A stretch of DNA of 64,000 nt, from NCBI GenBank assembly GCA_000004985.1, contig GG738911.1; one strand, given 5' to 3'. The position numbers were made by a program, and so were the translations under genes. Positions within the stretch are counted from its first letter, which is position 1. Each line of letters starts with the position of its first letter. The notes below the pieces were generated by a model that was not told the origin of the DNA, ran no database searches, and saw only the letters and a list, made by a program, of their open reading frames with translations. This document shows positions 1-25,900 of this stretch, piece after piece. The stretch is from Naegleria gruberi. Taxonomy: Eukaryota.

Positions 1-3000
1 CACCTGTCTCATCATTAATTCAAAACAATCCTTGACCATGCTATTTTCAATTCCAAGTTTTGATAGGGAATTTAAATCCAATAGCTCACAATTTGATTCG
101 TCCAATTTCTTACATTTTTCATAGAGTTGAATGAATGCAGTTCTACTCTTTGATGGAATGTTAACTTCCATTTCTGCTCCAGTTTTGATGTACTTTTGGT
201 AGATTCGGTCAGCAAAGAAGACTAATCCTCCAAGATTTTCACCAGATACCACATCTGTACTTGCTTTAATGTCAGAGAAGAGGAATAAATTTTCAGAGCT
301 GAATTCCTTTTCACAAAAGTTTGCAAATAATTCATATCCTTCCTCAGATTCCAAAGTATTGTAAAGTTCTTGATTCATAATTTCATCGTTTTGCTTCTTT
401 TGTTCTTCCTTTTTGGTTCTACGTTGTCTGAACTTGTAGACAAGAGCAACAATGAGTGCATAACCACCAAATACTAAAATATAGGAAATGACATAGAGTA
501 CTTCAAAGATGAAGGAAATTGAATCAAATGTCAAGGCAAGTTTGAACATGGCCAAACTCTCAAATCTGTAAGACAAGCTGCTCAATCCAATAACTTGATT
601 CAAGATGAGTAAAATGAAGGAAATAATATAAATGAACATTTCCATTCTGAAATAGAGAGGTCCATCCATTGAGGTAAACCAATGGAATGCTGTTAATAAA
701 ATATTCTTATTGAGCTTCTTCTTTTCATTGATGTTTTCAGCATTATCAAGACTGAAAGTACTGGTAGGTTGTGAAAAGTTTACAGCTCTTCTTCTATTCT
801 TCTTTTGATCAACTTCTTTCTTTGATGAGAGAATCATGTCAAGGATGGCGACAGCTGTAATAATCACACCAAATGTCAAAATACAAACTGTATAAGAAAC
901 TGAAACAATGTAGGTATACTGTAATGAATCTAGAACTCCAGTTCTTCTCAAAATGACCCAAATAACCCAATAGACAACATTGACAGCAGCAAATATACCA
1001 ATCAATGAATAGAATAACACTTGTGAGGTTGCATACTTCAATGCTTTCAAAATTGTTGTACTTTGAGCTTGCGTTCTATTATCAGAGAGTTTCTTGTAGA
1101 GTAGTTTCATGAATTGGAATCTAAAAACTTGCATGACGTAACAGAAAATGGCTGTTAAATTGAGGGTGTTTACAATAATCATGACAATATTTGCAATGAT
1201 ATTGGCAGCAGCATCTCCACTTTCCCACATTTGACTATTTGCAGAATTCAATTGATCCACTAGAACAGATCTTTGTACAATATAAATCAATGTACATTCC
1301 ACAATTAATGCTATCAATCCAACATAAGGAGTAAGCAATCTAGAGCTCACAGGTTGAGACTTTCTCAAAACAATCAATCCAATCAAAATTGCACTTGCTG
1401 CAATCAAATAAATAATACCAAATGATATTTGGGCATAGTATAATGATGAAACTTGATCCTTGAGTTGAACGGTAAATGTTGTTGTCTTGGATTCAAGGAA
1501 AGTTGTAAACATGGTTGTGTGAGAACAAGCACATTCAATTGAGTTAGATGAAACTCTATGCAATGAACATCCATAACTGCTCCACATTTTGAGTTTCTCA
1601 TCCCAATACTTGCAATGATACGTACTGTTGGTAACAGTCGAATTGGAGATTATTGAGCTTGGAATAGTGGCAGCATTGAATGAAAGAATAAGAGGTGAAT
1701 CTAAATTATCCAAAACCAAGACATCTGTCTTTTTCATGAATTTGAAATCAGTAACAGAGGAGCTGAGGGTCATGTTACTAACTGAAGCATCATAATTTGT
1801 GTTCTTTGAATAAACTATCATTGTTGCTCCACAAGTCATTGAATAGGTGCCATATTTGGACATCACTGATGTCAAATTCATAGAAACCTTGCTTTCAGTA
1901 TCAGAAACGCTTTGCAAATTACTAGTTGGAGTTGGCACATTGAAACTAGAAACTGTAATATTAATGAGAGAAGATTTGTATGAACTTGTTGGTAAATCGG
2001 TTGAAGTAGAACTAACAACAGTTGGGATAGTTCCATAATAAATCAGAACAGTGACAAGACTAGCTGTCGATTTGGTTTTTTCAGAATCATATGAAGTAGA
2101 GAAGCAGTTTGAAATAACTTGAATTGTTTTGGAGATATCTGCACTGGAGAGGGATGATTTCACATAGCCATACAGAGCAAGTTCACTCAAATAAATGTCT
2201 GTCAAATTTGAAACAAATGAATCCACTTTGTTGATGACTAGACTGACGGTATCAGCTGTTAGTGTTTCATTATTGGATGTTAGTGTTTCCAAGCTTGATA
2301 AAGATGATGAAGGGTTCTTTGGATCAATTACTACATTAGAAATGAGGGCAGAGACCAATGATGACGATGCTGAACTTGTTGTAAAGGTTTGATCTACAGA
2401 GGCACCTAATAGCGACTCTCCACTCAAAGATTTTACAACTTCAATGTATTGCTCTTGAGTTCCATTAAATGGAGAGACTGTTACATTTGCTGATGCTTCA
2501 GTTTCCACATTTCCGAGGGCGTCCTTGACAAAGACAACCAGTGAGATTGTTTCTGTTGTTTCTAAAATACTTCTTGATTTGGTGGAAGAGCTTTCCGACC
2601 TAATGTAAGGTAAATAAGATGAGAAGGTAGTGTTGAGACTGTATTCAGTCAATCTAACAGACTCTGCCTTTGATTTATCATAATAACCAAATGCATATTT
2701 GAGTGGCAATAGTTCAGGTGATGTTGCAACCCATTCAGAAACCTGAATTGTAAACTTGTCATTCATTGAAATACCAGAGATTGGAGAAACGCTAACAAGA
2801 TTGGAAACACGTGTTGGAGGACTTGCAGAGGAGATAATTTGAATTTGAACAGAAGAGCTAATGTTTTGCTGCTTGCTATTGATAACTGTGAATGTGAACA
2901 AGACAGTCTCATTCAAATAGTTGGATGGAATGCTTGCTTGAATTGGAACTGATGGAGAAAATGATAATAGGTTAGTATTATCATATTTGGCCAAGACTGA

Positions 3001-6000
3001 ACCTGACCTTTTGTAAGAGAATACTCCTGCACTAACTTTCCATTCATAGGAAACCAAAGTTGAGCAATTTTTTCCACAACCTAAAAAGTATCTAATAGTA
3101 GTTGTGTTCAGAGTGATACTGTTAATAACAGTTGAAATGGTTTGATCTTGAGTACCTGAAACTAGAACAGATGGTAAACCAAAGCTTCCCAAAGTTGGCT
3201 CATTCAATTCATACTTGACTACTAATTTGAATTGTTGCAGGTTGGATTTTCTGCTTTGGAATGGTTGAATATTAGCAATGGATGCATTTGCAATGAAAGT
3301 GTAATTGCCTGCTTGAGTAACATCAGTTAATGTAGAGTTGATTAACAAACGATTGGATTCCACATAGAAAACCACATTTTGTCCATCACATTCAACACAT
3401 GACCAGGTGTAGGAAATATTTGGACTTTGGCTTAATACTTGATCTATTAATTGAATTTCCACACTGACAGTCTTGTTATCAAATTCCAAATAGACAACCT
3501 CTTCATATTTTGTAATGTTAATTTGGAATGGACTAATATTCACTGAACAATCCTTATTGGTGAATCCTTCAACACAAGAACAGTAATTTGGTGATACACA
3601 TTGTCCCTTTCCTGAGCAAACACTCGATTCGTTGAACAAGGTACCAAAGCAATTGTGCAATTCACATGTTTGGCCATAATATCCTGGTTGACATGTGCAG
3701 TTATCTGGAACAAAGCATGAACCATGACTTGAGCAAACGTTGGTATCATTAAAAAGAATTCCAAAGCAATTATGATTTGAACAATCAAATGAAAAATATC
3801 CTTCTTGGCATGAACAGTTATTTGGACTCAGACAAGTTCCATGTTTGAAACAAACATTTGAAGAATTCTTATGAACTCCAAAGCAATCATGTTCAGAACA
3901 TTCAGGTCCATAATACCCAGCTTCACAGAAGCAATTATTTGGAGATAAACATTGTCCATGAGTGGAACAAACATTAGAATTGTTAAATAAAGTGCCATAG
4001 CATTGGTGAGCTTCACACTGATATCCATAATATCCTGGTTGACATGTACAATTATTTGGAACTGGACATGAACCATGGCCACTACAAACATTCATTGTAT
4101 CATTGAATAAATGGCCATAACATTCATGGTTGGAACAATCAAATGAAAAATAACCGGTCTGACATGAACAATTATTTGGACTCTAACAAGTTCCATGCTG
4201 GAAGCACACATTCGAAGAATTCTTATGAACTCCAAAGCAATCATGTTCAGAACATTCAGCTCCATAATATCCAGCTTCACAGAAGCAATTATTTGGAGAT
4301 AAACATTGTCCATGAGTGGAACAAACACTTGAACTATTGAATAGAGTACCATAACAGTTGTGCAATTCACATGTTTGCCCATAATATCCAGCTTGACATG
4401 TGCAGATATTTGGTGAGTCACATGAACCGTGAGATGAGCAAGTACTACTATTTAAATGTTCCACTCCAAAGCAATTGTACAATCCACAATCAGATCCATA
4501 GAAAGGAACTAAACAACTACAATTATTATAGGCTGTACATGATCCTCGTCCTGAACAGACAGTTGAGGAATTCCTAGAAGCACCATAACAATCATAAATT
4601 TCACAATTCTATTTTCATCACATGTACAATTATTGAATGAATGACATTGACCGTGTGAGGAACAAATATTTGGATTGTTTGAGAGAACTCCATTACAAAT
4701 ATTAATTTCACAGAATTTGCCAGTATGTTGCTCATCACACTGACAAGTATCGAATGCTGTACAATTACCAAATCCAGTACACACATTTGTTTCATTTTTC
4801 AATATTCCACTACATTCGAATAATTCACAATCTTCTCCATAATAACCCTCTTGACAGGTACAATTTTCTGGTGAAGAACATGATCCATGTCCTGAACAAA
4901 CCATTGAAGAATTATTGATAATTCCATTACACATATAATTTTCACAATTATCTCCAAAGTATAACTCTGGACAAGTGCAATTATTCTTTGAATCACATGA
5001 TCCTACTCGAGAGCATACATTTGGTTGATCGAATCTAATTCCACCACAGTCATAGTACTGGCATTCAGATCCATATCTTCCTGCTTGACAATTACTACAT
5101 GTATTTGGTGAAGAACATGTTCCAAATCCACTGCAAACATTTGGATCACTTGGTGCAAGGCCATTACAATAATACAATTCACAAAATGTTCCTGAATATC
5201 CTGTTTGACATGAGCAAGTATTTGGACCAGTACATGTTCCACGACCATTGCAAACAGTACCAACTTGAGAATAGAGAATACTATTGCAATAGTAATTTGA
5301 ACACGTACTTCCTGAATATCCAGAATAGCATGAGCAACTATCTCGAGCATTACATGATCCATGTCCACTACAAGCACTCGATCCATATAATCCATAACAG
5401 AGATATTCATTACACTGAGAACCAGACCAAGTGTAGGTCAGTGAATTTCCAAAATACTGATTGGCTGTCCAGCAAACTTCCTTCTGGGCACCATAGAGTA
5501 CCAAATTACCATCTGATATTATCATTGATGATGTTGATGTTGATGGAATAAACAACTCACTCCATCATAACAATTCAATAGAAACTTACCTGATTGCATG
5601 ACTAATCTGAAAGGGGCTGTACCAGAGGTGCATGCAGAAGAAATTGTCTTTAAAACACCTCCCTGGTCTCGTATCTCAAGAGTGCCATCCAATGACAATA
5701 CTAAATTATACGGAGCTGTTCCTTGTCCATTAGTATCAGATGCCCAATAGGCAACCAATCCAGGTTTATAAAGCACCAAATTGCCATCCACTTGTTGTTT
5801 CAATTGGTAAATTCCATTCGATGAGTAAATAGAATTTGATTGATAGAGGTTGTTGGTTCCACCCGATGAATACAGAGTGTTACCACTTGTTGAATCCACA
5901 CAATAGCAATTATTTGACCCAGCACAGAAGCCATGTCCACCGCATGAGTTCAAATCTGTGGCCGAATAGCCATAACATGTATTGACAGCCAAAACTGAGA

Positions 6001-6088
6001 GTTGTTGTTGATGGTTGTGAAAACATGTCTGTACCACAAATGCAAAGACAAAATAGAGAAATAATGTGGAAGGTGCTTGGTGTTGCAT
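1..6088 (-). CDS. Giant surface receptor, 3' partial (runs off left edge). Domain order: signal peptide, bulb-type (GNA-like) mannose-binding lectin with three QxDxNxVxY subdomains, more than 20 tenascin-type EGF repeats, N-glycosylated stalk, GPS motif, 7TM, C-terminal RGS domain. One 77-nt phase-1 intron at about 5513-5589. In-frame TAG at about 4183-4185 and a frameshift at about 4590-4620.
   Basis: Minus-strand translation shows MQHQAPSTLFLYFVFAFVV (signal peptide) and the lectin motifs QQVDGNLVLY and, after splicing GTAAGT...TATCAG, QSDGNLVLY. Repeats of CxCxxGYYGxxCE follow to about 3540. Reading runs open from 4180 to position 1. GPS-like CKYWDEKLKMWSSYGCSL...IECACSHTTMFTTF at about 1620-1480. 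Seven hydrophobic helices at about 1440-480. RGS motifs EEGYELFANFCEKEFSSENLFLF and ADRIYQKYIKTGAEMEVNIPSKSRT at about 400-1. The listed ORFs 4092..4421, 3828..4091, 3540..3788 and 1404..1601 are wrong-frame. Confidence 0.6.
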
Positions 6089-7107: not shown

Positions 7108-9021
7108 TTATGGAAGAGGTGAATTTTGAGAGGAAACTAAATTGTTTGTACTTGATATTGTCGACAATAGTTCAGAAGTTGATTCATTATTCACCACTGA
7201 TTGATCAATTGGATAGGCCATTTGTGAATTCTTGATAGAAGGCCTTCTGCTAGATTTCTCTTCCTTCTTCTCATCCCTCATTCCTTTCCATGTACATTTC
7301 ATCAATTCATAACATTTCATCACTCTATCAGTTATTCGATCTCCGTACATTATTCTAAACGATTCCTCATTCAAGGTAATGTAAGTACACGAACTGATGA
7401 GTGTTATCAAACTGGTATCGAGAAAGATATTTCTTGTAATTCCCCAAAATAATCCTAAAATGTCATAACCAAGAATGAATGTGAACAAGTTCAGGAAACA
7501 AACAATCAAGACACCAATTGACAAGATGGAAACAAGGAGAATAAACTTGGTGAAACGATATTCGAGAATTCCAGCATTCGAATCTCGTTTTCTCAAAGTT
7601 AAAAAGATTTTGAATCCATAAAACATAAAACCAATGACAAATGTCAATAAAAATAATGGAACTGAAGCTCCAAGTACAATCCATGCATAACCATAATCTG
7701 AAACTGTGGCGTAAACTATTCCAGAAATAATCAAAACTAAAATGACTCCCAAATAGAAAGCAATTAAAATTGCCTTATTAAGTTTGGACAAACCTTTGGA
7801 TCCTTGGTCTTTCCTTGTGGATATGTCAATCACGTGTGACCATGAAATAACCAATGAACTGTAGGCACAAACAACAAAGACTGCGGAGATTCCTCGGAAT
7901 AATCCAGAAAAGTAGCGATCATTGAAATCTTTGGTTTGGGAAAAGTTAAAAACAAATCGGAAAAGATTTTCTAAGCCACCACATAGACAACTCATACTTA
8001 ACATGATTGGAGGATGCATGACAATGTCAAAAAAGTGTTTCATCGTCTTTCTAAATTTGGAAAATAAAGCTGCTCCAGAAAAGGAAATATCTCTCATGGC
8101 CATTTGTCTAAATTTCTTAATTCTCTCAATCAACCTTGGTAGAAGAATAGCCCAAACAATGAACATGAACAATCCCTCGAAAATTATAAAGAAAATCCAC
8201 TGAACAGCTCTATAACTCAATGGAATAAAGAATAAATGATAAGCATCATTACAGTAGAAAGCAAACGAAAGTGAATTTGGATTTTGGTAATTACACCAAC
8301 ATAGAACAGGTAAGTGAAAAGGTCCTTGTCTTTTCAAATCAGCCAAATCTTCCCTAGAAATGCTATTGAAAAAGGAAAACATTTCGTATAGAGAAACATA
8401 TTTCGTATTCACAGTTTCGTTTCGACTTTTCTTATAATCTCCCAATTTTCCAACAAAGAACGGAGTAGTCAACATTTCATAATCAAACAATGGCAAATCC
8501 ACCATCTCCTCTCCAGTATTACATTGTCGTTTCAGAACCATTGTAAACTCAATCTCTGAAAATATTTGATTCACATCAAAACATGTTCCATTATTGTAAA
8601 TCTCCACAAATTCACCTCTATTTTCCATATGTTTACAATAAAGACAAGCATTCACAGCCGAATCCACCTGATCCAATTGTTCAATATTAGTCAAGTTCAG
8701 TAAAACTTGATTCATCTTGTTACAAAGAAGATCAGAACAAGAATTAATATCAAACTCTCCTAAAAGTTGAAATCTTTGCGAAAAACTTGCGTTTGTTGAA
8801 CAATATTCAAAAATTGTCGAGTCGAGTGAAAATAATCTTGGAAAATAGGATTGACTGACAGGTGGCAGACGCATTACTTCATCGACAGCCACAAGAACAT
8901 GATCAAGTTGTGGTAGCTGTCCTAGATGTTGTGTTTCGAAAGTTTGGCTTGTTGAGCTGTAACTGTCACTGATCAAGAGTGAAATGATTAACAGGACAAG
9001 TGTCAATGCAAATCGTGACAT
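7108..9021 (-). CDS. Signal peptide plus a roughly 260-aa cysteine-containing luminal domain plus 7TM. Possibly a LUSTR-family (GPR107/108/TMEM87-like) seven-transmembrane protein.
   Basis: 637-aa ORF. N-terminal hydrophobic leader MSRFALTLVLLIISLLIS. Seven predicted TM helices in the C-terminal half. Short cytosolic tail. Family assignment rests on architecture only. Confidence 0.35.
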   Translation of the reverse strand: MSRFALTLVLLIISLLISDSYSSTSQTFETQHLGQLPQLDHVLVAVDEVMRLPPVSQSYFPRLFSLDSTIFEYCSTNASFSQRFQLLGEFDINSCSDLLCNKMNQVLLNLTNIEQLDQVDSAVNACLYCKHMENRGEFVEIYNNGTCFDVNQIFSEIEFTMVLKRQCNTGEEMVDLPLFDYEMLTTPFFVGKLGDYKKSRNETVNTKYVSLYEMFSFFNSISREDLADLKRQGPFHLPVLCWCNYQNPNSLSFAFYCNDAYHLFFIPLSYRAVQWIFFIIFEGLFMFIVWAILLPRLIERIKKFRQMAMRDISFSGAALFSKFRKTMKHFFDIVMHPPIMLSMSCLCGGLENLFRFVFNFSQTKDFNDRYFSGLFRGISAVFVVCAYSSLVISWSHVIDISTRKDQGSKGLSKLNKAILIAFYLGVILVLIISGIVYATVSDYGYAWIVLGASVPLFLLTFVIGFMFYGFKIFLTLRKRDSNAGILEYRFTKFILLVSILSIGVLIVCFLNLFTFILGYDILGLFWGITRNIFLDTSLITLISSCTYITLNEESFRIMYGDRITDRVMKCYELMKCTWKGMRDEKKEEKSSRRPSIKNSQMAYPIDQSVVNNESTSELLSTISSTNNLVSSQNSPLP

Positions 9022-10603: not shown

Positions 10604-12352
10604 TTATTCTAAATATCTAAATAAAAAATCCAATTCCAATAAACCTCTTCCAAAGCACATAATAATCAAGTCAGCAATCAAATATTTCTTCTTTCCAATT
10701 TCCACAACTTCGTCTCTAATATCATTAACAATAAGACTCAGAATAGATTCGCCTTCTTTTCTCATAGTGACAACTCTATACGATTCCACTAGCATTTGAG
10801 GATCAAGCTCTAAATTTTCCTTATCCATCAGACCTTTCTCCAACAATTGGCTGACGATAGAGTTTGCATTGAATGGCAACCATTTTTTGATTACTTCAAA
10901 AGATGAGGCAGTATGCCCTAAGGAGGTATGTTCAAATTTCAATCGGCATTCAAGGGAGCTTAGGAAATCAGAGAACTTGCACTTGAGAGAGCGATCAGGT
11001 TTTTGGAGCATTACGTGAACCGGAAAGTCAAATGCCAATTGACCATTCTTGCTCAATTCTGAGGGATCCAACAAGATATGGAAATCACCAAAAGAAAAAT
11101 ACTCTGCATATCTGCTTGCGCCCAAAGGTGGTTCCAATTGGAACAAACAATCTTGAGAATCATTATTGTTGAGAGCTTCTTTCAATGAGGAATTCATCTC
11201 GAATTTAGAAAAACTCTTCCATGCAATATGAGACAAATAATTGACCGTAATTGATTCGTACTCTCTTCTCTTGATAACATTGGGAAATCTAGCACCAAGG
11301 TCCTTCAATTGAGAATAAACCTTACGTGTTAGAGGTAGGTCAATTGAATGAGTTTCTAATACCAAGGAACAAACATAAATATCGTCTGAAGATATGTACA
11401 TAGTCTTTGAAACCTTGTCAAGAAACACATCTCCTGCTTTAAAGCAAATATCTCCAATCCAGATTTTCTTGATAATTGCATGAGTTGTCTTATCATAAAG
11501 AAACATATAGGTACTATCCCTCAAAACAAGATAATGATCCAATTCACCAACAAAACGCAACCAACACTGAAATTTGACTCGTTGTTCACAATTTGAGAAG
11601 TTTCTACCAGTGAATAATCTGAGCTCTGATGTTTTGTCCTCAGTTCTAGTATTAATCCACAATGCATCTCTATTAGAATCATAGGTTATAGAATATGTGT
11701 TTTCTAACCTCAAAGTATCAACAAAGTATTTGTGTTGTAAAGTACTTCCATCCAAAACATGAATCTGTCTATCATTCGAAAGAATGACTTCATTTCTGGG
11801 AAGTGAATATTCCAACAAATCAGCTTCCAGATTTGTAATTCCCAAATTCCTTCTTTGCAAAACGGTGAATTTCCCATTGGGATCGATTTTAGCCTTCACC
11901 AAGTCCTACACGATTAAATCATCTGGACTTTCGTCTGGAGGATTCTCCTGAACAATACACATTGGATAGAATGCAATAAGATCACCCAAATCACACCGAT
12001 GAATAAATTTCTTACTGTCCATGTCGAAGACATGCAGAAAACAATTCGAGTTTGGTCTATCACTACTTTCGGAAACTATTATCAATCGTTTCTTCATGTG
12101 GATTCTAAGGTCGAGGGTTGTCTCGATTTCTATTTGAAAAGTGTTCAGGTGAGATAGAAAAGCCTTCTCCAAGCATAGAAGAGTTGGAGTGGAAAGTTTC
12201 TTCTCCAACCATAAATGTGTGAAATGTTTCTCCAAGATTCCATCAATGAAAACTAAACGGACTGGTGCGTGAGAGTCAAGGCTTTTTTCAATGTTTCTGT
12301 ATTTAGCTTTAGGTTCGTAATCATTCACCTCAAAGATATGCTTTGTTTTCAT
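10604..12352 (-). pseudogene. Third tandem copy of the unknown-function paralog family. The reading frame is interrupted by a single in-frame TAG at 11906-11908 where the paralogs encode Tyr. It is either a nonsense-mutated copy or a base-call error.
   Basis: ORFs 11906..12352 and 10604..11902 are co-linear and in the same frame, separated only by TAG. The N-terminal half aligns with the N-terminus of 12577..14466 and 14500..16368 (EYEPK...RLVF(L/I)DGI(E/L)(K/N)H(Y/F)T...L(H/S)TPT(I/L)(T/L)CLE). The C-terminal half aligns with their C-terminal halves (DK(S/T)(S/T)H(M/A)(V/I)IKKI...YSIDKPL / YSIDLPL). Confidence 0.4.
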
Positions 12353-17292: not shown

Positions 17293-20200
17293 TTAATGTA
17301 AAGTTTCATCTTCTGGTTGAATTTCACTAGATACATCTTCACCAATGAAATTATCAGCATTTGCATTCAATTCTTCACTGGTCAAGACAGCAGATTCGTG
17401 ATGCTTTGCAGAGAGGAGGTAAGTTTGTGTCATTCCCTTGCCCTTAACTTCAATCATTCTCTCTTCGAATGAAAAGCCCAAGTCATATACTCTCTCATAG
17501 GTAGACCGAGAAACTTGAATTCTTCCTGGCTTGGAATTTGATTCCATTCGAGAGGCTGTATTGATTGAATCACCCCATAAATCATAGGCAAACTTCTTAC
17601 GTCCAATGACACCTGCTACAACTGGTCCAGTGTTGATACCAATTCTAATGTTAACTTGTTCTTCAAATCTTCCCTTTCTAAAGTTGGAATTGAAAGAACG
17701 AATCACTCCAAAGGTATCAATGGCAAACTTTAAGACTCTTTCAGGATGGTCTGATTGAGCATTCAAATCATGCAAACCACCTGCTGCAAAGTAAGCATCA
17801 CCAATTGTCTTGATCTTTTCCAAATGATAACGATCTGTCAAATCGTCAAAGCCCATAACAATTTGATTCAACATTTGAACCAATTCATTAGGAGCTAATT
17901 TTGAAGATAAACTAGTAAATCCAACCATATCTGAGAAAAAGCAAGTGATATCAGCAAATTTCTCGGCAATCAATGATGTGCCATTTTTAAGTTTTGCTGC
18001 CACTGCTCCTGGTAGAATGTTCAATAATAAAGTTTCAGAGTTTTTCTTCTCCTCAGCAAGGAGAGCATTATGCTATATTATTGTAAGGTTTTAAGATGAT
18101 TATTATAGAATAGAACATGTAAAAAAACTAATAAAAAGAAAACAAACCTTCTTTTCTGATGTAATATCCTTAATAAAGCATGTGATAATTGGTTTCTTCT
18201 CAAAGAGAGTTACAAAAATATTCATTTTGGCTGGGAATGTAGTTTGATTCTTTCTAATACATTCCACGTCAAAGGATTCACCCTTTGGATCAAATTCTGT
18301 GACAGTTTGTTTCATACTGTCTACAGCTTTTCTAATTTCATCATGATGTTGTGGACACAGGAGTGTAAACAGCAATTTACCAATTACATCTTCCTGTTGA
18401 TTTCCAAACATTCTTTGAGCTGCTGGATTGAAAATTTCAATATCACCACGATGGCTACACAAAATGACGCCATCAACAGCAGCATTTAAGATATTTCTAA
18501 CTTTGGCATCTTCTCCCCCAACATTTCTCTTCTTGACAAATAATCGAGATAGGGCACCATCGCTGAGAGAGTGATAAAGAGCATAATTTCTCAATTGTTC
18601 ATTATTTTCAAATGTTTCAATTGATAAATAATTGAATAAGGACCTTAGAGAAAAGACATTCTTCCAGTGTATCCTTAAAAAGTAGTACATAATTACACAA
18701 CCAATAAGGTTGACTGTAAATCCAACAATGGCCAAAGCTGTTATTTGAGTTACCATTGGAGTTGAGGATTTAACAGCAAAAATAAGTGAAAAGTCAATCA
18801 ACTTGAACGATGCAGTATTAGCCAAAAAAGCAACTGCATAAAATTCTTGCAAGATAACAAGCAAGTCTTGATAGTTGGAAGTTTTGGTTGTTGCAACCAA
18901 ATCTTCGATAATTCTTGAGGATTTGAGAATAGTATCCTGAACCATATAATCAATACCAAAATCACATTGTGTGTAATTGTCTGGTTTGTATCCTTTTGGA
19001 ATGACCATGGCATTGTATATTGAAGAGACAGATTCAATTGTACAATTCAAATCCCCACGAATCATGTGATCAGTTTCTGGAAACATACCGACAACTAGAG
19101 TTTCGTACGCCTTAACAGCAGAACCATACATACACAAATTCCAAAAGTATCTCAATTTGAAAACAACATAGTCAAAGTTAGTCCTTAGCACTTTGATATC
19201 AGATTCTGCGAGTATGGGTATTTCATCTAGTCCATAATTGTTCAACATATTTGTGGAAGAATGATAGAATTGTTCTGCAACATTGAAAGACAATCGTTGT
19301 AAGAATGCCATTGCATCAAAACCATCTTCCATGGTAATGTAAGATTCAAAACTGTACTTGGAATTTCCAAGAGTTTCTTTAAGGAAAATACCCAAACTGA
19401 CAGACACAGCAATCATTACAAAAATACCAATAATGATAAAGATATTCTTCGGTTTAAGAATGGAGGTCTTGGGAATATGAATAGAAACTTCATCACCAAC
19501 TTTCTTACCAAGATCATGGAAGAGTTTACCAACTTCATTCTTTGACACATGGGTGTGAATTAGTTTGATTTGCTGTTTCATTGTAGAGAGTTCAAATCTA
19601 CTATATAGCAGGTAAATTGTTGCATAAACCACATAGAACGCAAGAACAACAGATGTAAATATGGTAAAGGTGTCGTTAATTCTTAGGGCATCCTCCTTTG
19701 CAGAATCTGTAAAAACTCTGCAAAACTTTTGATAGGCATAAGTGATGGTTTCTTGATTTCTGTACATGAGCATAAACCCATAACTATTTAAACTATTCAT
19801 TAATTGGTCGTCTCCACTGTTAACCATTTGATCAGAAAGCTTTACAAGAACATTGGTAATATCAGTAATGGTCACATTTTCTGCCATGGTTTCGTTGTAA
19901 AACTTGGTTTCCATTGTTGCATCTGATTGCATTTTTGGAACATAGAAAGGATAGTAAAATTCATGGTAATGTGAGTAAACTGATGGATTGAATTTGGCAT
20001 CATAGGCCTTTTGTTGTAAATTAACCAAGATTTGTCTCAATTTTACAATGTTCTGTTTCAGCAATTTAGGGCTAAGGAACATTTCACTGGTCATTGTTTT
20101 TGGAATTGAAGAAGACGTGGAATTCATTAAATTTACAGTAGATTGATAGGCACGAACTGTTACCAACATATTTGACAATGCAGCTATTGGCGAACAAGCA

Positions 20201-22500
20201 TCAATCACGTTAATAACATTCAATGTAACGACATCTGAAAAGTTGAGGGCAATTACGATACCAGCAATTAAAAAGGCAAATCCCAACCCAGCAAATAAGA
20301 AAAAGATGGTCATTTGAATATTTCTTGGTGCTGGCACAGAAAGCGCATTTCTAAATACCATTTCTCTCTTTTGTTCGCCAGAAACAGTATTTTCAATACC
20401 GTTGAAATTGTCAAAACTATCCTCAATACTACTCATTGTTTCATAATTCATTTGTGAAAAGGATTGAGGGTTTTCTACGGTAAAATTGATAGCATTAACG
20501 GAGGCTTGAATCAACTTTCTAGAGTTATCAACTGTCTCAGCTGTTCCAACAGAATTAGAGTCTGGATGTACTCTATTCTTTCTTGCTAGTTTGGCTTTGA
20601 AAGCAGCACCTCTTTTTTGGAAGTTACCTTCATCTTCCTCAAGAGTCATTGCTTCATTAAAGTATTCACTGGCAAGGTCCTTATTAAACTTGATATTCTC
20701 CAAATAGTTAGCATACATTCTCAAGACAGTCTTGTCGTTATAGTAGAGCGATAGTAAGCTGTTGAACATGTTATCACACTCCTCAATGAGAACGGCATTA
20801 CGAGAAGCAATGCTTTCAATCTTTTCATAGTTCACTATCTCTTGCATTTGCTCCTTCCAAAAATGGCGATGGAGAGATGTAATCTCAAGCATGGATTTTT
20901 CAATCTTTGAAAAGGTAGCTTTAAGATCGATTGCATTCTTTTGTCCCCTTATTCCCTCAGTAGTAGAAGTTTCAACTTCTTTCAATCGTTGACCCAGTAA
21001 AAATCTCATGTACAAATTTGGTCGTTGCTTGATAGCCTTTTTAAGGAGAGCAAGTGCAAACGTGGACGCGTTCAATTCTTCTCCCATAAAGTAGGCAGCA
21101 ATGCATGCAGAGCTGTTCAAAATGTTTTGGTCACTGAAACCCTTCTGAGAGGAAATAGCCCTGATGAATGAAATGATAAACATCAAGTCTGCATTTTCTT
21201 CTTCATCCTTTAGCATTACTTCCACTCCCATTGTAAACCTCATGTACATGTCCATCTTGGAAAGGTTTCCATCGTCCTCAAGCTGTTGATAAATATTAAG
21301 GGCCTCTCTTTCAATGTTTTTATCTTGAATTGCTGTAATAAACTTCTTTCTCAGCTTTTTTACAATGATTCTTGAGTATATTTCTGCAATGACGCCTCCT
21401 AGAATTCCAAGAAGAACCACCAAAGCAAGAGTCATCATTGATAACCCCACACCCATAACATTATCATTGGTTGGATTAGCCAAACTTGTCACGAGACCAC
21501 CAATACTGGCACCAATACGAGCGCTTATTACCCCAGCCACTATTGAGTTCTCAAACCTTCTCATCATTGGGAAAATCTTGAATAGCAAGACTAATAATAT
21601 GAAGGAACACACCAGATGCACAATCGATCTAATGAATGCATAGTTGGCTGGTATTAAAAAGTGTACAAGCATGCCCAAAATGTTGCAAATAACTCCCAAA
21701 AGAGGAAGAATGGCACTATCTCCGATCATTGGGGTTGTGCTTAAGGGATGAGAATTTGGAAGCATGATTACAGTCAGTAACGCCTCAACTTGTAAGAGGA
21801 CAATGAATATTAAGGAGAGGGCCATCATGACAATGTTCCTCGTTTCAAAACATGTAACTGAATCAAATCTATTCAAATAGGATGTCGTAGTGGTCGTGGA
21901 GTTACTCAGCAGTGAACCAACAGCCACACTTGTAGATCCTTGTTGTTGCACCAAATTGTTGGTATTGTATCCATAGTCACAATCAACAAAGCTCGTGAAG
22001 ATGTAGGTCATTGGTGCAGAGAGAATAAGGAGAGCAAACAAGGAAATGTGAAACACATACTTCACATAGGGAATAAACTTGGAAGTGGATCTCACAGCTC
22101 TAATGGTGAGTGCAAAGGCTCCAAGAGCGAAAAGCACGAAAAACATTGAAATACTAGCAAGAGCAATGGCTCCATCATATGGAATAAGATCCAACGATAA
22201 ACTTGTTGTATAGTTCAATACTGTGAAAATCCAAGATCCCCAAACACCAAAGTTAAAGTGATGTGGACTCAGTAAGGGCATCCAAATAAAACTCCAAAAC
22301 AAGAGAATGTATAATGTAAGGGTCATGACAAATGTACGTGTTCCATGTCTTCTTGATGTGTTTTGTGCAGTGAATACAAAGGAAAGAAATTCAGTTCTAA
22401 CCTTGACTTGGAGAGAACTTGCCGACTCTGAGACAATGCTTTCAGAGTTTTGAGAACTATCCGAGCCAATAAAAGAGGCTCCAGCAATAGAACTTCTCAT
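17293..22500 (-). CDS. Class III adenylyl/guanylyl cyclase. N-terminal multi-TM block, TPR-like region, second TM-flanked sensor region, PAS domain, C-terminal cyclase catalytic domain. Two exons (22500-18148 and 18072-17293) with a 75-nt intron at about 18073-18147.
   Basis: ORF 18103..22500 ends in a PAS-like segment (...VDGVILCSHRGDIEIFNPAAQRMFG...). The donor AAG|GTTTGT and acceptor ATATAG|CAT join it in frame to HNALLAEEKKNSETLLLNILPGAVAAKL. The catalytic motifs follow: FSDMVGFT, KIKTIGDAYFAAGGL, WGDSINTASRMES. Confidence 0.8.
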
Positions 22501-22917: not shown

Positions 22918-25900
22918 TTATTGGTATTCTTCTTCTTCGACTTCAATATATTCAACCTCTTCACCTTCAGCAAGTGTGATTGGTTCTCCATTTTCGTCAA
23001 CATACTCATACTCGACTTGTTCTTCCACTTCTTCCTGTTGTTGTTGTTGCTGTTGTGGAGTGTTAGCCGTTGTTGTCGGTTTTTGTGTTGGTGAAGATAC
23101 CTCTGGTTTAATGTCGCTCTTCTTAATACTTGCTCTCGAGTTTCTGACATTTCTGGAATTTGGTGTTGAAGATCCTGATGAACCTGTATCGGAACTTTCA
23201 GTGGTGTTTGGACTAGTAGAAGCAATTGGAGCCAGTGGTTTCTTTGGATTGAACTCGACAGACATGTAATCTTGATCCAAGAAGAAGGTCTTGATAAAAT
23301 CAATGTTAGAAGTAGATTGGGCCTTGTGTCTTTGAATAATTTCATTAATGTGGCTTCTTCTGGTTGGGAATGGCTTTCTGTATTGCTTTTGCTTATATCT
23401 CACAGCCTTGTTAGCATTAATGGCAGTCATTCTCACCAGTGGTCCCAAGTTCTTCTTATCCACAATCATTCCATCAAGGAGAGGTCCGAAAAGTGGAACT
23501 TCTGGCTTTGTATAAATTCTTACCCTAAATAAATATGTTTCCTTATGTCTTTGATATGGATAAACACAGATGTGAACAAAGTTAAATTGAGAAGGAATTG
23601 TCCATGGTTTGTAATCTCTGTCGTGCTCGCTCCAAACAATGTGGACAAAATCGTTACCGACGTGACGTTTCTTTTGGATTTGTTGCGAGTCATTGACCTT
23701 AGTTGGCATTCTTGTAACATCGTGGAAAATCACCTCAGTTGTTGCGTTTGAGTAATATGGAGCAGTATTACCAGTAGTCAAATTTTCATCTAAACCTCCC
23801 ATAAAACCACCATGAGTTCTCATATCAGCATCCCAACCAAGAGATTGAACAAATTCCTTGTAGATTCTAGAGCCTGATGTTTCATCATTTTTCAAAATAT
23901 CCTTTTGGGCTTCTTGTTGATTGGCAACATAGATGAGACCAACCTTGATGGTTTCTCTTTCAGTTAACTTGTCGAGTTGTTTAAGAGATCTGTAGAATCT
24001 ACCGTTGGCATTTACCAAACTGAAAGAAGCTCTACTGGTACCAGAGAGGAAACCAATATTATTGAGGAGGGATCTAAATGCCTTATGTACAGATTTGGTT
24101 AAATTATCATTTTCATAATCTGGCTTCTTTGGAGCATGAGCTTCGTTGAAACCAAGTGCTGGTGTATCCTNNNNNNNNNNNNNNNNNNNNNNNNNNNNNN
24201 NNNNNNNNNNNNNNNNNNNNNNNNNNNNNNNNNNNNNNNNNNNNNNNNNNNNNNNNNNNNNNNNNNNNNNNNNNNNNNNNNNNNNNNNNNNNNNNNNNNN
24301 NNNNNNNNNNNNNNNNNNNNNNNNNNNNNNNNNNNNNNNNNNNNNNNNNNNNNNNNNNNNNNNNNNNNNNNNNNNNNNNNNNNNNCGGCACATTCTGGGA
24401 AAACTTGAGTAACATAGTGTTGCAAAACTTCAAGCATATCAGTCTTATCAGTATCAATTTCAATATCATAGTGAGGATAATCGAGTTCTTCAGCACCTTC
24501 ATCTCCAGCCATTTGGCTTTCTTGTTCTTCAACCTTGATGGCTTCTTCTTCTTCATGATTTTCTTCGTCATCATCAGAATCTTCCTTAGTTTCTTGTTGG
24601 GCAGTTACTGGAACCTTGATATCTGGTGTTTCGAATGATTCCTTATCTACCTTCAAACCACCTGTTTGGTCGATATCAGCTGGCAGATCAACTGCTGCCA
24701 AATCTTGTCTGACAATTGGTTCAGCACGAGGATCATCAGCATCAAACAATTCTTCGTCACCACGATTAACAATGCTTGATACATAGAATGAGGCTCTATC
24801 TTCTTCTGGAGAACCAGGGCTATCAAAACCAGCTTTGGAAGCTCTTGGAGCATTTGAATTCTTGGCACCAGACTTGGATTCATCATCTACCAATTCATCG
24901 AATTCCAAATGGTCAATTCTAACCATGTTATCCTTCTTGAAGGTCATTGTTTCTGGAGAGTAAACTTGCTTGAATTCCCAACAATATTTACCAGTCATGT
25001 CACGTAAAATTACAACACAAGATTCAGTCTTGTTTGGATTTTCCATAATTGTCAACAAGGTATAATTGTTGAAAACAAAGTGGTGAACCTTTGGAGAAGT
25101 TACATACAAGCCATTTTCTTCTTGCAAGACATCAAATTCGGAAATTTCAGTACTCATTCTAGCAGCACCAATAGGAGTTGGGAATTGACTGAAAACGTTC
25201 AAAGCATAACACAACAAGCTTTCGGCAGCAGTAGCAATTTCCAAAGCACTGTCTTCCTTGCTGAGTGTATAATTTTCGAAAGAATACATCTTGGCTCCTC
25301 TATCAGCTGAGTCTTCAGTGGCAGCTTCAGTTACAGTATCCTTTTGTGGAGTCAACAATACACTCAATGAAACAACAGATAAACCTCTATTGATAGCACT
25401 GAAAAGCATTGAGGCAACTTCCTTGCTTTCCAAAACCTTCATTGGAATGTATTGCAAAATTTCAACAATGGAATAGAACAAGTGTTTGAAAATGCTCCAT
25501 TGTGCCAAGGCAGAATCAGAATCCTTCAACTGAGAGGACAAGGCAGTACAGATGGTCAACAAGAATGTACGAATGGTTGGAACACCTAACTTGGTGAATA
25601 AACCTAAATGAGCCAATGTAACTACAGCATCGTGAGCAGCACAGGCAACATCAGCATTCTTGTCAACAAAGAACTTGATGAACATTTCAACAATTTGTCT
25701 GGATGGATTAGATCTTCCGTTAACTCCTTCAAGTTGGAGCTCATTGTGGAGAATAGCATAGAGACCCCAAATACACTTGATTTGAACATCAACAAATCTG
25801 TCATCTTGAACACAAGATTGAAGTGTTTGAACAATACGACCTCTGAGTTTGGTGAAGGTGGTTACAGTTTCTGGGTTCAAATTTTCCAACTTGGCTTGTT

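What the first reader, a model, noticed from the sequence alone, without database searches (positions are those of the whole stretch)
1..6088. Chimeric giant receptor: mannose-lectin, EGF array, GPS motif, 7TM and a C-terminal RGS domain in one polypeptide
One minus-strand reading frame links seven domains in order: (1) a signal peptide; (2) a complete three-subdomain bulb (GNA-type) lectin, with its third QxDxNxVxY motif regenerated only after removing a 77-nt GTAAGT intron; (3) more than 20 tenascin-type EGF repeats; (4) an N-glycosylated stalk of about 640 aa; (5) an adhesion-GPCR-style GPS motif (CKYW...W..YGC...C.CSHTTMF); (6) seven TM helices; (7) a cytosolic RGS domain. A receptor that carries its own G-protein GTPase accelerator is a self-limiting signalling module (compare plant AtRGS1), here apparently fused to an adhesion-GPCR-like autoproteolytic stalk and a carbohydrate-recognition ectodomain. 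The ORF track misses it entirely: the frame is open to the window edge and the track shows only wrong-frame fragments.
Basis: partly seen in the sequence, partly recalled or inferred. Interest (0 to 1): 0.85.

Follow-up and report, generated by a model that had tools for sequence, protein, structure and literature searches.

The report
Naegleria lectin-EGF-GAIN-7TM-RGS receptor gene, interrupted
This is a Naegleria gruberi copy of an already published family of cell-surface receptors that carry their own G-protein "off-switch" (RGS) domain, but in this assembly a 10-base deletion and a stop codon break the gene, so it cannot be read as one protein.

Summary
The window is Naegleria gruberi NEG-M. 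The minus-strand translation from window 4092 to 1 is 100% identical to XP_002670859.1 (NAEGRDRAFT_74131).

- signal peptide;
- bulb-type lectin, restored by a 77-nt GTAAGT...CAG intron;
- EGF array of 16 units plus one, not more than 20;
- stalk of about 650 aa that ends in a GAIN fold;
- GPS motif (CSHT|TMF);
- seven TM helices;
- RGS box, cut by the window edge.

They are not one open frame. EGF unit 7 carries a 10-nt deletion that shifts the frame at about 4609-4613. EGF unit 11 carries an in-frame TAG at 4183-4185. No canonical intron removes either lesion, and the public gene model starts at the first Met after the TAG.

Intact paralogues with the same order exist, for example NAEGRDRAFT_79129 (1919 aa). 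The architecture (7TM-RGS with GPS, EGF and lectin modules) was published for N. fowleri, with GAP activity shown for the RGS domains (Bosch et al. 2022, PMC9283941).

The 7TM bundle has a GPCR fold but matches no Pfam 7TM family and is not specifically class B2.

Verdict: a new, probably disabled or mis-assembled member of a known kind. Interest is low to moderate.

The parts
6023..6088 (-). Start codon (6088-6086) and predicted signal peptide (aa 1 to about 22, hydrophobic core LFLYFVFAFVV).
   Evidence: This is the first ATG of the frame. Kyte-Doolittle hydrophobic segment at aa 5-24. Paralogues P0006, P0062 and P0053 start with equivalent signal-like segments.
5900..5977 (-). N-terminal EGF-like module (C38-C63, CYGYSATDLNSCGGHGFCAGSNNCYC) ahead of the lectin.
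   Evidence: Weak Pfam EGF_2 match. The module is conserved in paralogues in alignment A3.
5442..5881 (-). Bulb-type (GNA-like, B_lectin) lectin domain, aa about 70-190, interrupted by the intron. Motifs are QVDGNLVLY (canonical), SLDGTLEIR (degenerate) and QSDGNLVLY (canonical, spans the intron).
   Evidence: phmmer against the PDB gives 1dlp 7e-13, 4oit 4e-11, 1kj1 9e-11 and GNA 1jpc 6e-8. BLAST to bacterial B_lectin proteins gives 1e-11 to 1e-18. Pfam B_lectin reaches only 22 bits, below its cut-off of 32.4. Motif alignment.
5513..5589 (-). Intron, 77 nt, GTAAGT...CAG, phase 1, between S166 and D167.
   Evidence: Sequence. The spliced translation is continuous. Without splicing the frame stops at about 5525. 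The N. lovaniensis homologue has an intron 4 codons upstream of this position.
3547..5399 (-). Array of 16 EGF-like repeats of about 39 aa (teneurin/tenascin type) with 21 N-x-S/T sequons.
   Evidence: Pfam EGF_2, EGF_Teneurin and EGF_TEN. Unit list. Sequon count.
4609..4613 (-). Frame break in EGF unit 7. Frame 1 is readable to 4611, two stray bases 'ag' lie at 4610-4609, and frame 0 runs from 4608. The unit is 10 nt shorter than its neighbours (CTCDEN|NCEIYDC). Frame 1 would terminate at 4511-4509, giving a product of about 500 aa.
   Evidence: a 35-aa unit against 39 aa for the others; ORF 4509..5555.
4183..4185 (-). In-frame TAG in EGF unit 11 (HGTC*SPNNCSC). The tandem sister unit has CTG (Leu) at this position.
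3641..4432 (-). Tandem duplication inside the EGF array: period 354 nt (three EGF units), 2.2 copies, 80% identical, with stretches of near-identity.
   Evidence: Tandem Repeats Finder. Pairwise DNA alignment.
2458..3546 (-). Beta-rich N-glycosylated stalk (aa about 822-1184), REJ-like in its relatives.
   Evidence: AlphaFold2 model 1 is all-beta over residues 1-336 at pLDDT 50-85. Pfam REJ scores 40.5 bits in the N. lovaniensis homologue P0005 but gives no hit in this protein.
1486..2457 (-). GAIN-like domain: helical subdomain (aa about 1185-1326) and beta-sandwich subdomain (aa about 1342-1508) ending in the GPS strands.
   Evidence: Model 1 secondary structure. Foldseek against the PDB gives CD97 8ikj 4.8e-9, BAI3 GAIN 4dlo 4e-8 and latrophilin GAIN 4dlq 3e-6.
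1504..1617 (-). GPS motif CKYWDEKLKMWSSYGCSLHRVSSNSIECACSHT|TMF. The predicted cleavage lies between T1498 and T1499 (nt 1516/1515) and is followed by a Stachel-like TMFTTFLE.
   Evidence: Pfam GPS 32.6 bits against a cut-off of 22.5. The family profile matches ADGRG2, ADGRD1, GPR97 and ADGRL3 over GPS plus TM1. 68 of 72 family representatives keep C.C.H[TA]T.F..hydrophobic. In model 1 the segment after the predicted cleavage site is modelled as a beta-strand directly before the TM helices; reading it as the last strand of the GAIN sandwich is my inference from the secondary structure, since no coordinates were available.
427..1470 (-). Seven-transmembrane bundle (TM1 aa about 1514-1547 to TM7 about 1819-1873) with family motifs RKxQPVxSR after TM1, DxPLYFR before TM6 and FGG in TM7.
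1..360 (-). RGS box, cut by the window edge; 40 further residues are in XP_002670859.1. The G-alpha contact residues are conserved (FSSEN, EVNIP, and DTFSRF beyond the edge).
   Evidence: Pfam RGS 34.4-34.9 bits against a cut-off of 23.9. The family profile matches RGS5, 16, 10 and 4 at down to 8e-13. Alignment to RGS10. Identity to P0004.

Best explanation
The locus is a member of the Naegleria (Heterolobosea) family of large cell-surface 7TM-RGS proteins. Its parts, in order, are a signal peptide, a bulb-type mannose-lectin domain, an EGF array, a beta-rich stalk, a GAIN domain with a GPS site, a divergent GPCR-fold 7TM bundle and a cytosolic RGS box.

The most likely working principle is a receptor-regulated GTPase-activating protein:
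- The RGS box keeps fast-exchanging ('self-activating') or otherwise activated G-alpha subunits in the GDP state at the membrane.
- Engagement of the glycan- or matrix-binding ectodomain changes that GAP activity or its location. This may act through the GAIN domain's autoproteolysed HT|T site and its tethered TxFxxF peptide.

Shown here: the domain identities and order, the GAIN fold, the 7TM fold, and conservation of the RGS contact residues and of the GPS/Stachel motif across the family. Shown by others for N. fowleri relatives: GAP activity of the RGS boxes. Inferred: cleavage, ligand, and the coupling between ectodomain and GAP.

In this particular copy, as assembled, a 10-nt deletion (about 4609-4613) and a TAG (4183-4185) inside the EGF array break the reading frame. 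The full-length protein cannot be made from this sequence. The copy is therefore either a very recently disabled paralogue or null allele (about 0.55) or an intact gene with assembly errors (about 0.35).
For: - Identity: the translation is 100% identical over 1365 aa to N. gruberi XP_002670859.1 / NAEGRDRAFT_74131.
- Domains: Pfam EGF, GPS and RGS are above their cut-offs. The lectin matches solved monocot and bacterial bulb lectins at down to 7e-13.
- GAIN: the Foldseek top hits are CD97, BAI3 and latrophilin GAIN structures.
- RGS: the S-E-N, N and D..R contact residues align with RGS10.
- Family: intact paralogues have the same order (P0006 1919 aa, P0007 2005 aa, P0020 1727 aa). 72 cluster representatives carry a complete 7TM module, and 68 of them keep H[TA]T.F..hydrophobic directly upstream.
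- Published function: Bosch et al. 2022 report 28 Nf 7TM-RGS proteins with GPS, EGF and lectin modules, and GAP activity of Nf 7TM RGS2-4 on Nf G-alpha 2/3/5/7 (PMC9283941).
- Lesions: with no rescuing splice donor.
Against: - No transcript or protein data for this locus could be reached.
- GAIN cleavage, ligand binding and GAP activity are untested for this protein.
- The downstream 1434-codon frame and the upstream 466 codons show no further decay. The lesions are therefore very young or are not real; Sanger assembly of near-identical EGF repeats could err.
- The closest N. lovaniensis homologue also shows three 1-nt frame changes. This hints that such arrays are error-prone in assemblies.
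- The stalk part of model 1 has only moderate confidence (pLDDT 50-85, pTM 0.48).
Confidence: 0.8

Rival explanations
1. The gene is intact in the organism and encodes the full polypeptide of about 2040 aa. On this view the 10-nt deletion and the TAG are errors of the draft Sanger assembly in a repetitive EGF array, or belong to a defective haplotype that happened to be chosen for the consensus.
For: - Both flanks of the lesions are perfectly open and encode canonical EGF units.
- The TAG lies in a 354-nt tandem duplication with near-identical stretches, where mis-joining is easy.
- The N. lovaniensis homologue shows three 1-nt frame changes in the same kind of sequence.
- Intact paralogues exist.
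Against: - A 10-nt deletion is not a typical base-calling error.
- The deletion lies outside the repeat that Tandem Repeats Finder detected.
- There are two independent lesions within 430 nt.
- The annotators also could not bridge them (P0004 starts after the TAG).
- Large, fast-evolving receptor families commonly contain fresh pseudogenes (general knowledge).
Confidence: 0.35
2. There are two separate functional genes: a secreted lectin plus 7-EGF protein (ATG 6088 to the frame-1 stop at 4511-4509, about 500 aa), and a downstream EGF-GAIN-7TM-RGS gene with its own start.
For: - The frame-1 reading does end in a stop 100 nt after the deletion.
- The public model treats the downstream part as a gene of its own.
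- N. lovaniensis annotators split the homologous locus into three models.
Against: - The downstream model has no signal peptide although about 860 aa must be extracellular.
- The EGF array is continuous and in register across both lesions.
- There is no intergenic spacer.
- Paralogues P0006 and P0007 carry lectin-to-RGS in one uninterrupted product.
- The splits in N. lovaniensis are single-base frame changes inside EGF units and inside TM1.
Confidence: 0.07
3. It is a true adhesion-class GPCR that activates G proteins as a GEF through its tethered agonist. On this view the fused RGS box acts as a built-in timer, which is the first reader's 'self-limiting' module.
For: - GAIN fold and GPS motif.
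- A Stachel-like T-x-F-x-x-F segment is nearly invariant in the family.
- The family profile aligns with ADGRG2, ADGRD1, GPR97 and ADGRL3 across GPS, Stachel and TM1.
- The 7TM has a GPCR fold.
Against: - No member of the family matches Pfam 7tm_2 or any other 7TM family at E<=1.
- The same 7TM-RGS core, with its PLYFR and FGG motifs, occurs without any GPS module.
- N. fowleri has self-activating G-alpha subunits that engage these RGS boxes, which fits the receptor-GAP model (PMC9283941).
Confidence: 0.12

Closest known systems
Naegleria fowleri 7TM RGS proteins (Nf 7TM RGS1-4 and 24 others; Bosch et al. 2022, J Biol Chem 298:102167, PMC9283941)
   Same: Same genus and same architecture: an extracellular region with lectin-type and EGF-like modules, a GPS motif, 7TM and a C-terminal RGS box. 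Direct sequence relatives were retrieved here (P0003, P0125, 27-47% identity). The paper shows GAP activity for the RGS boxes.
   Different: This is an N. gruberi paralogue that has not been discussed in the literature. Its reading frame is broken twice in the reference assembly. The GAIN fold, the near-invariant HTT.F..F motif and the non-class-B nature of the 7TM were worked out here and are not stated in the passages of the paper that I read.
Arabidopsis AtRGS1 and other 7TM-RGS proteins (plants, Trichomonas, some opisthokont protists)
   Same: 7TM followed by a cytosolic RGS box. The proposed logic is a membrane receptor whose output is GAP activity on self-activating G-alpha (PMC9283941; PMC3971589).
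   Different: AtRGS1 has no large ectodomain, GAIN domain or GPS motif. Homology of the two 7TM bundles was not tested here because the AlphaFold database library was unavailable. No plant-like sequence was among the best 150 profile hits.
Adhesion GPCRs (class B2; e.g. CD97/ADGRE5, latrophilins, BAI3, ADGRG2)
   Same: A large adhesive ectodomain with EGF repeats, and a GAIN domain with a GPS site directly before TM1. The cleavage-site geometry is H-x-T/S, and a hydrophobic tethered peptide follows it.
   Different: The 7TM bundle does not match 7tm_2 and is not closest to class B by fold. The cleavage triad is H-T-T rather than H-L-T/S. The C-terminus carries an RGS box, which no metazoan adhesion GPCR has.
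Polycystin-1 / suREJ family (REJ + GAIN/GPS + membrane domain)
   Same: A REJ-like beta-rich region followed by GAIN/GPS. Pfam REJ scores 40.5 bits in the N. lovaniensis homologue P0005, and REJ is recorded for several paralogues.
   Different: No REJ hit in this protein at E<=1. There is no PLAT domain. It has 7 rather than 11 TM helices, no TRP-like channel part, and an RGS box.
Monocot mannose-binding (GNA-type, beta-prism II) lectins and bacterial B_lectin modules (SCAfet 1dlp, garlic lectin 1kj1, pyocin/putidacin L1, M. smegmatis 4oit)
   Same: A three-subdomain repeat with the QxDxNxVxY signature. Significant sequence matches to solved structures.
   Different: Only two of three sites are canonical. 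The domain is below the Pfam cut-off. Here it is an N-terminal module of a membrane receptor, not a free lectin or a bacteriocin.

Membership tests
7TM-RGS proteins (Naegleria/AtRGS1 type) | Seven transmembrane helices N-terminal to the RGS box, with the C-terminus cytosolic | tested here: met
   Seven hydrophobic segments. Seven long helices in a pLDDT-90 AlphaFold2 model. The signal peptide plus seven TM helices place the RGS box in the cytosol (inference).
7TM-RGS proteins (Naegleria/AtRGS1 type) | RGS box (PF00615) with G-alpha contact residues | tested here: met
   Pfam RGS 34.4-34.9 bits against a cut-off of 23.9. Family profile against RGS5, 16, 10 and 4 reaches 8e-13. FSSEN, EVNIP and DTFSRF align with RGS10.
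7TM-RGS proteins (Naegleria/AtRGS1 type) | GAP activity on a cognate G-alpha | not testable with these tools
   Shown for N. fowleri relatives only (PMC9283941).
7TM-RGS proteins (Naegleria/AtRGS1 type) | Sequence relationship to the published N. fowleri family | tested here: met
   N. fowleri proteins P0003 and P0125 match at E 1e-40 to 1e-126 over GPS, 7TM and RGS. 72 cluster representatives carry a complete 7TM module.
7TM-RGS proteins (Naegleria/AtRGS1 type) | An uninterrupted coding sequence (a functional gene) | tested here: not met
   Frame change at 4609-4613 and TAG at 4183-4185. No rescuing intron. Whether these lesions exist in the organism is unresolved.
Adhesion GPCR (class B2) | GAIN domain with GPS motif immediately before TM1 | tested here: met
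   Pfam GPS 32.6 bits against a cut-off of 22.5. Foldseek hits to the CD97, BAI3 and latrophilin GAIN domains at 5e-9 to 3e-6.
Adhesion GPCR (class B2) | 7TM of the secretin/adhesion family (Pfam 7tm_2, PF00002) | tested here: not met
   [not shown]
Adhesion GPCR (class B2) | Autoproteolysis at H-x-|-T/S and a tethered agonist (Stachel) | tested here: inconclusive
   The residues H(-2), T(+1), F(+3) and F(+6) are present, and 68 of 72 relatives keep them. Cleavage and agonism need experiments.
Adhesion GPCR (class B2) | G-protein activation (GEF activity) | not testable with these tools
   No data.
Bulb-type lectin (B_lectin, PF01453) | Match to the family profile above the curated cut-off | tested here: not met
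   17.6-22 bits against a cut-off of 32.4.
Bulb-type lectin (B_lectin, PF01453) | Significant homology to solved beta-prism II lectins over the whole domain | tested here: met
   phmmer gives 1dlp 7e-13, 4oit 4e-11 (query 12-115 of 132) and 1kj1 9e-11. BLAST to B_lectin-annotated bacterial proteins reaches 1e-18.
Bulb-type lectin (B_lectin, PF01453) | Three QxDxNxVxY mannose-binding motifs | tested here: inconclusive
   Two are canonical (QVDGNLVLY, QSDGNLVLY) and one is degenerate (SLDGTLEIR).
Polycystin-1/REJ family | REJ domain (PF02010) | tested here: not met
   No hit at E<=1 in this protein. It is present at 40.5 bits in the N. lovaniensis homologue P0005.
Polycystin-1/REJ family | PLAT domain and an 11-TM / channel-associated membrane part | tested here: not met
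   No PLAT hit. Seven TM helices followed by RGS.

The most novel reading that the evidence does not exclude
In Heterolobosea the GAIN domain and its tethered peptide (H-T|T-x-F-x-x-F, kept in 68 of 72 family representatives) may be coupled to a 7TM bundle that is not of the secretin/adhesion class and whose output is an RGS GAP. That would make it an 'adhesion receptor-GAP': force- or ligand-driven release of the lectin/EGF fragment would switch G-alpha inactivation on or off. If so, GAIN-to-7TM tethered-agonist coupling is older than, or arose independently of, metazoan adhesion GPCRs. It would also not be tied to exchange-factor (GEF) signalling.
Probability: 0.3. Interest if true: 0.6.

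Novelty: new member of a known kind. Interest (0 to 1): 0.3.

Why it matters
The architecture joins an adhesion-type ectodomain and an autoproteolytic GAIN module to a receptor whose cytosolic output is G-protein inactivation. It is useful for asking how G-protein signalling worked in early eukaryotes. It is also a possible drug-target class in the pathogenic sister species N. fowleri.

That point has already been made in print for N. fowleri. This locus adds three things:
- A corrected, much longer N-terminal structure for NAEGRDRAFT_74131.
- The observation that the reference sequence of this copy is broken, so it should not be used as a full-length exemplar without re-sequencing.
- Computational evidence that the stalk ends in a GAIN fold while the 7TM is not class B2.

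Tried and rejected
- **Intron rescue of the two lesions.** I scanned 6100-3300 (minus strand) for GT[AG][AT]G[TA] donors. Only the 5589 donor is strong and none lies near 4610 or 4185. Rejected.
- **Word-index homology searches.** Searches with the C-terminal module found only 3-4 proteins and missed the identical P0004, probably because low-complexity words saturated the candidate list. The exhaustive representative search was used instead.
- **Exact look-ups for independent contigs.** Exact look-ups for N. gruberi products (the 7108-9021 ORF, P0002 and P0004) found nothing on record. The lesions could therefore not be checked against other assemblies or reads.
- **Structure prediction of the lectin.** Sequence searches against the PDB replaced it.
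- **Pfam search for any 7TM family.** Run on 43 family members; nothing was found.
- **Synteny test of orthology with the N. lovaniensis locus.** There were no shared upstream neighbours, so I call it the closest homologue, not the ortholog.
- **Alternative genetic code for the TAG.** Rejected: it is a single occurrence in about 2000 codons and it aligns with Leu in the sister repeat.
- **Literature searches.** 'Naegleria' plus 'GAIN domain' gave 0 papers. '7TM-RGS/GPS/EGF' gave only irrelevant papers.

Full report
**What the window is.** The region is AT-rich, about 34% G+C. Its best protein matches are all from Naegleria. The minus-strand frame-0 translation from the Met codon at window 4092 down to base 1 is 100% identical over 1365 residues to N. 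gruberi XP_002670859.1 / EFC38115.1 / NAEGRDRAFT_74131 / UniProt D2VYI3. That protein continues 40 residues past the window edge. The window is therefore the N. gruberi NEG-M reference assembly, and the 3' two-thirds of the reported feature is already an annotated 'predicted protein'.

**Checking the observation.**
- The ATG at 6088 opens a frame encoding a hydrophobic signal-like segment, an EGF-like module and a lectin-like region.
- The proposed 77-nt intron (5589-5513, GTAAGT...CAG) is the only strong splice donor in the whole gene. Removing it joins ...VMQS to DGNLVLY... and keeps the frame open.
- After about 300 more codons the frame breaks. EGF unit 7 reads CTCDEN in frame 1, and the next residues (NCEIYDCYG...) are in frame 0. 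The unit is 10 nt shorter than its neighbours.
- Frame 0 then runs 141 codons to a TAG at 4185-4183. This TAG sits where the sister copy of a 354-nt tandem duplication has CTG (Leu).
- From 4182 the frame is open for 1394 codons to the window edge. By my own estimate chance would give this at about 1e-46 at this composition.

All seven modules therefore lie on one strand, in order and in register. They are not 'one reading frame'. The public model simply starts at the first Met after the TAG and has no signal peptide.

**Domain identities.**
- EGF: Pfam confirms EGF_2, EGF_Teneurin and EGF_TEN.
- GPS and RGS: Pfam GPS scores 32.6 bits against a cut-off of 22.5, and RGS 34.4-34.9 against 23.9.
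- Lectin: it stays below the Pfam B_lectin cut-off (22 against 32.4 bits). However, the single sequence matches solved bulb-type lectins at E = 7e-13 to 1e-8 (SCAfet, a mycobacterial lectin, garlic and snowdrop lectins). It also matches bacterial B_lectin proteins at down to 1e-18. Two of the three QxDxNxVxY motifs are canonical.
- EGF count: the array has 16 units of about 39 aa, plus one module ahead of the lectin.
- Glycosylation: there are 21 N-glycosylation sequons in the EGF array and 21 in the stalk.

**Structure of the stalk and membrane part.**
- Model 1 covers residues 206-1405 of the public protein and used a 14-sequence alignment (pLDDT 73). It shows a beta-rich region, a helical subdomain, a beta-sandwich, seven long helices and a helical C-terminal domain. 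The segment after the predicted cleavage site is modelled as a beta-strand just before the TM helices, as expected for a GAIN domain; no coordinates were available to check this directly.
- Its best PDB matches are the CD97 receptor and the GAIN domains of BAI3 and latrophilin, at 5e-9 to 3e-6. The stalk therefore ends in a GAIN fold.
- Foldseek returns only GPCRs for the 7TM, but weakly (best E 0.02).
- No Pfam 7TM family matches this protein or any of the 43 relatives at E<=1.
- A family profile aligns with adhesion GPCRs only over GPS, the tethered peptide and TM1.

The adhesion-GPCR resemblance is thus real for the GAIN/GPS module and not demonstrable for the 7TM bundle.

**RGS box.** The family profile matches RGS5, 16, 10 and 4 at down to 8e-13. 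The residues that contact G-alpha in RGS4 and RGS10 (S-E-N, N and D..R) are conserved.

**Family context.**
- N. gruberi has intact paralogues with the same order of modules: NAEGRDRAFT_79129 (1919 aa, lectin-like region to RGS) and P0020 (1727 aa). N. lovaniensis has P0007 (2005 aa). Willaertia also has relatives.
- An exhaustive profile search of 1.84 billion cluster representatives finds 107 proteins at E<=1e-30. Seventy-two of the retrieved representatives have a complete 7TM module.
- 68 of the 72 with a complete 7TM have C.C.H[T/A]T.F..hydrophobic directly upstream. T(+1), F(+3) and F(+6) are invariant or nearly invariant in the 43-sequence alignment.
- Shorter 7TM-RGS proteins without GPS share the PLYFR and FGG motifs of the membrane core. 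The ectodomain-GAIN part therefore looks like an add-on to a common 7TM-RGS core.
- The closest N. lovaniensis locus is colinear but annotated as three genes, because of three single-base frame changes, one of them inside TM1. It shares no upstream neighbours with the window.
- A N. fowleri paralogue shows a frame change inside an A8 run in two assemblies.

**Literature.** Bosch et al. 2022 (J Biol Chem, PMC9283941) report 28 7TM-RGS proteins in N. fowleri. [quoted passage not shown] They show that the RGS boxes of Nf 7TM RGS2-4 accelerate GTP hydrolysis on Nf G-alpha 2, 3, 5 and 7, some of which are self-activating. De Mendoza et al. 2014 (PMC3971589) note that 7TM-RGS architectures are common in bikonts. 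The chimera is therefore a published kind. I found no paper linking Naegleria with the GAIN domain by name.

**How it most likely works.**
- Shown: the module identities and their order.
- Shown for close relatives by others: the GAP activity of the RGS box.
- Inferred: the protein sits in the plasma membrane with the lectin/EGF/stalk outside and the RGS box inside, and it holds G-alpha in the GDP form. Binding of glycans or surfaces to the ectodomain alters GAP activity or receptor location, as glucose does for AtRGS1. This may involve GAIN self-cleavage at HT|T and the tethered TMFTTF peptide.
- The alternative, that the 7TM is an exchange factor with the RGS box as a brake, is not excluded. 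It lacks support because the bundle is not a recognisable class B receptor and the same core occurs without a GAIN domain.

**Status of this copy.** As sequenced, translation from ATG 6088 would stop at 4511-4509 after about 500 residues. The remainder has no signal peptide. The flanks are otherwise undecayed, so the lesions are either very recent (a fresh pseudogene or a null allele; I put this at about 0.55) or artefacts of assembling near-identical repeats (about 0.35). I could not reach independent reads or transcripts to decide.

**Verdict.** The claim of a single open polypeptide fails in this assembly, the EGF count is overstated, and the architecture is already known from the sister species. 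This is a new and possibly defective member of a known family, of modest interest. The most useful open question is whether the conserved GAIN-tethered peptide controls a GAP rather than a GEF.

Noticed in passing
window 22918-27875 (minus strand): Two overlapping ORFs: 22918-24393 with a Rap_GAP domain (6e-60) and 24099-27875 with a RALGAPB_N domain (8e-24). They look like one RalGAP-like gene split by an intron or a frame change.
   Followed up: no
window 18103-22500 (minus strand): A 1465-aa ORF combining TmcB-type TPR repeats with a C-terminal PAS domain. The five ORFs between 7108 and 16368 have no Pfam match at all.
   Followed up: no
L001 4323-11449 (N. lovaniensis PYSW02000021.1): The closest homologue of the gene is annotated as three separate genes (406, 1260 and 483 aa). 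The cause is three single-base frame changes: two in EGF units at about 5815 and 6000, and one inside TM1 at about 9830. These are either long-read assembly errors or another disabled copy.
   Followed up: partly
L002 and L003, about 11800-11810 (N. fowleri contigs): A GPS-7TM-RGS paralogue changes frame inside an A8 homopolymer between TM3 and TM4. The change is identical in an ENA assembly and in a Logan assembly.
   Followed up: partly
L001 4956-5056 and from 5128: The N. lovaniensis homologue has two introns in the lectin region (GTATGT...TAG and GTAAGT...). The first lies 4 codons upstream of the N. gruberi intron position. The second has no counterpart in N. gruberi.
   Followed up: partly
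window 3641-4432: A 354-nt (three-EGF-unit) tandem duplication, 80% identical overall but with blocks of about 100 nt of near-identity. This suggests recent duplication or gene conversion inside the array. The TAG lies in copy 1.
   Followed up: yes
[not shown]
   Followed up: partly
proteins P0205-P0256 from the representative search: Many shorter 7TM-RGS proteins (300-850 aa) lack GPS but share the PLYFR motif before TM6 and the FGG motif in TM7. This indicates a common 7TM-RGS core to which different ectodomains have been added.
   Followed up: partly
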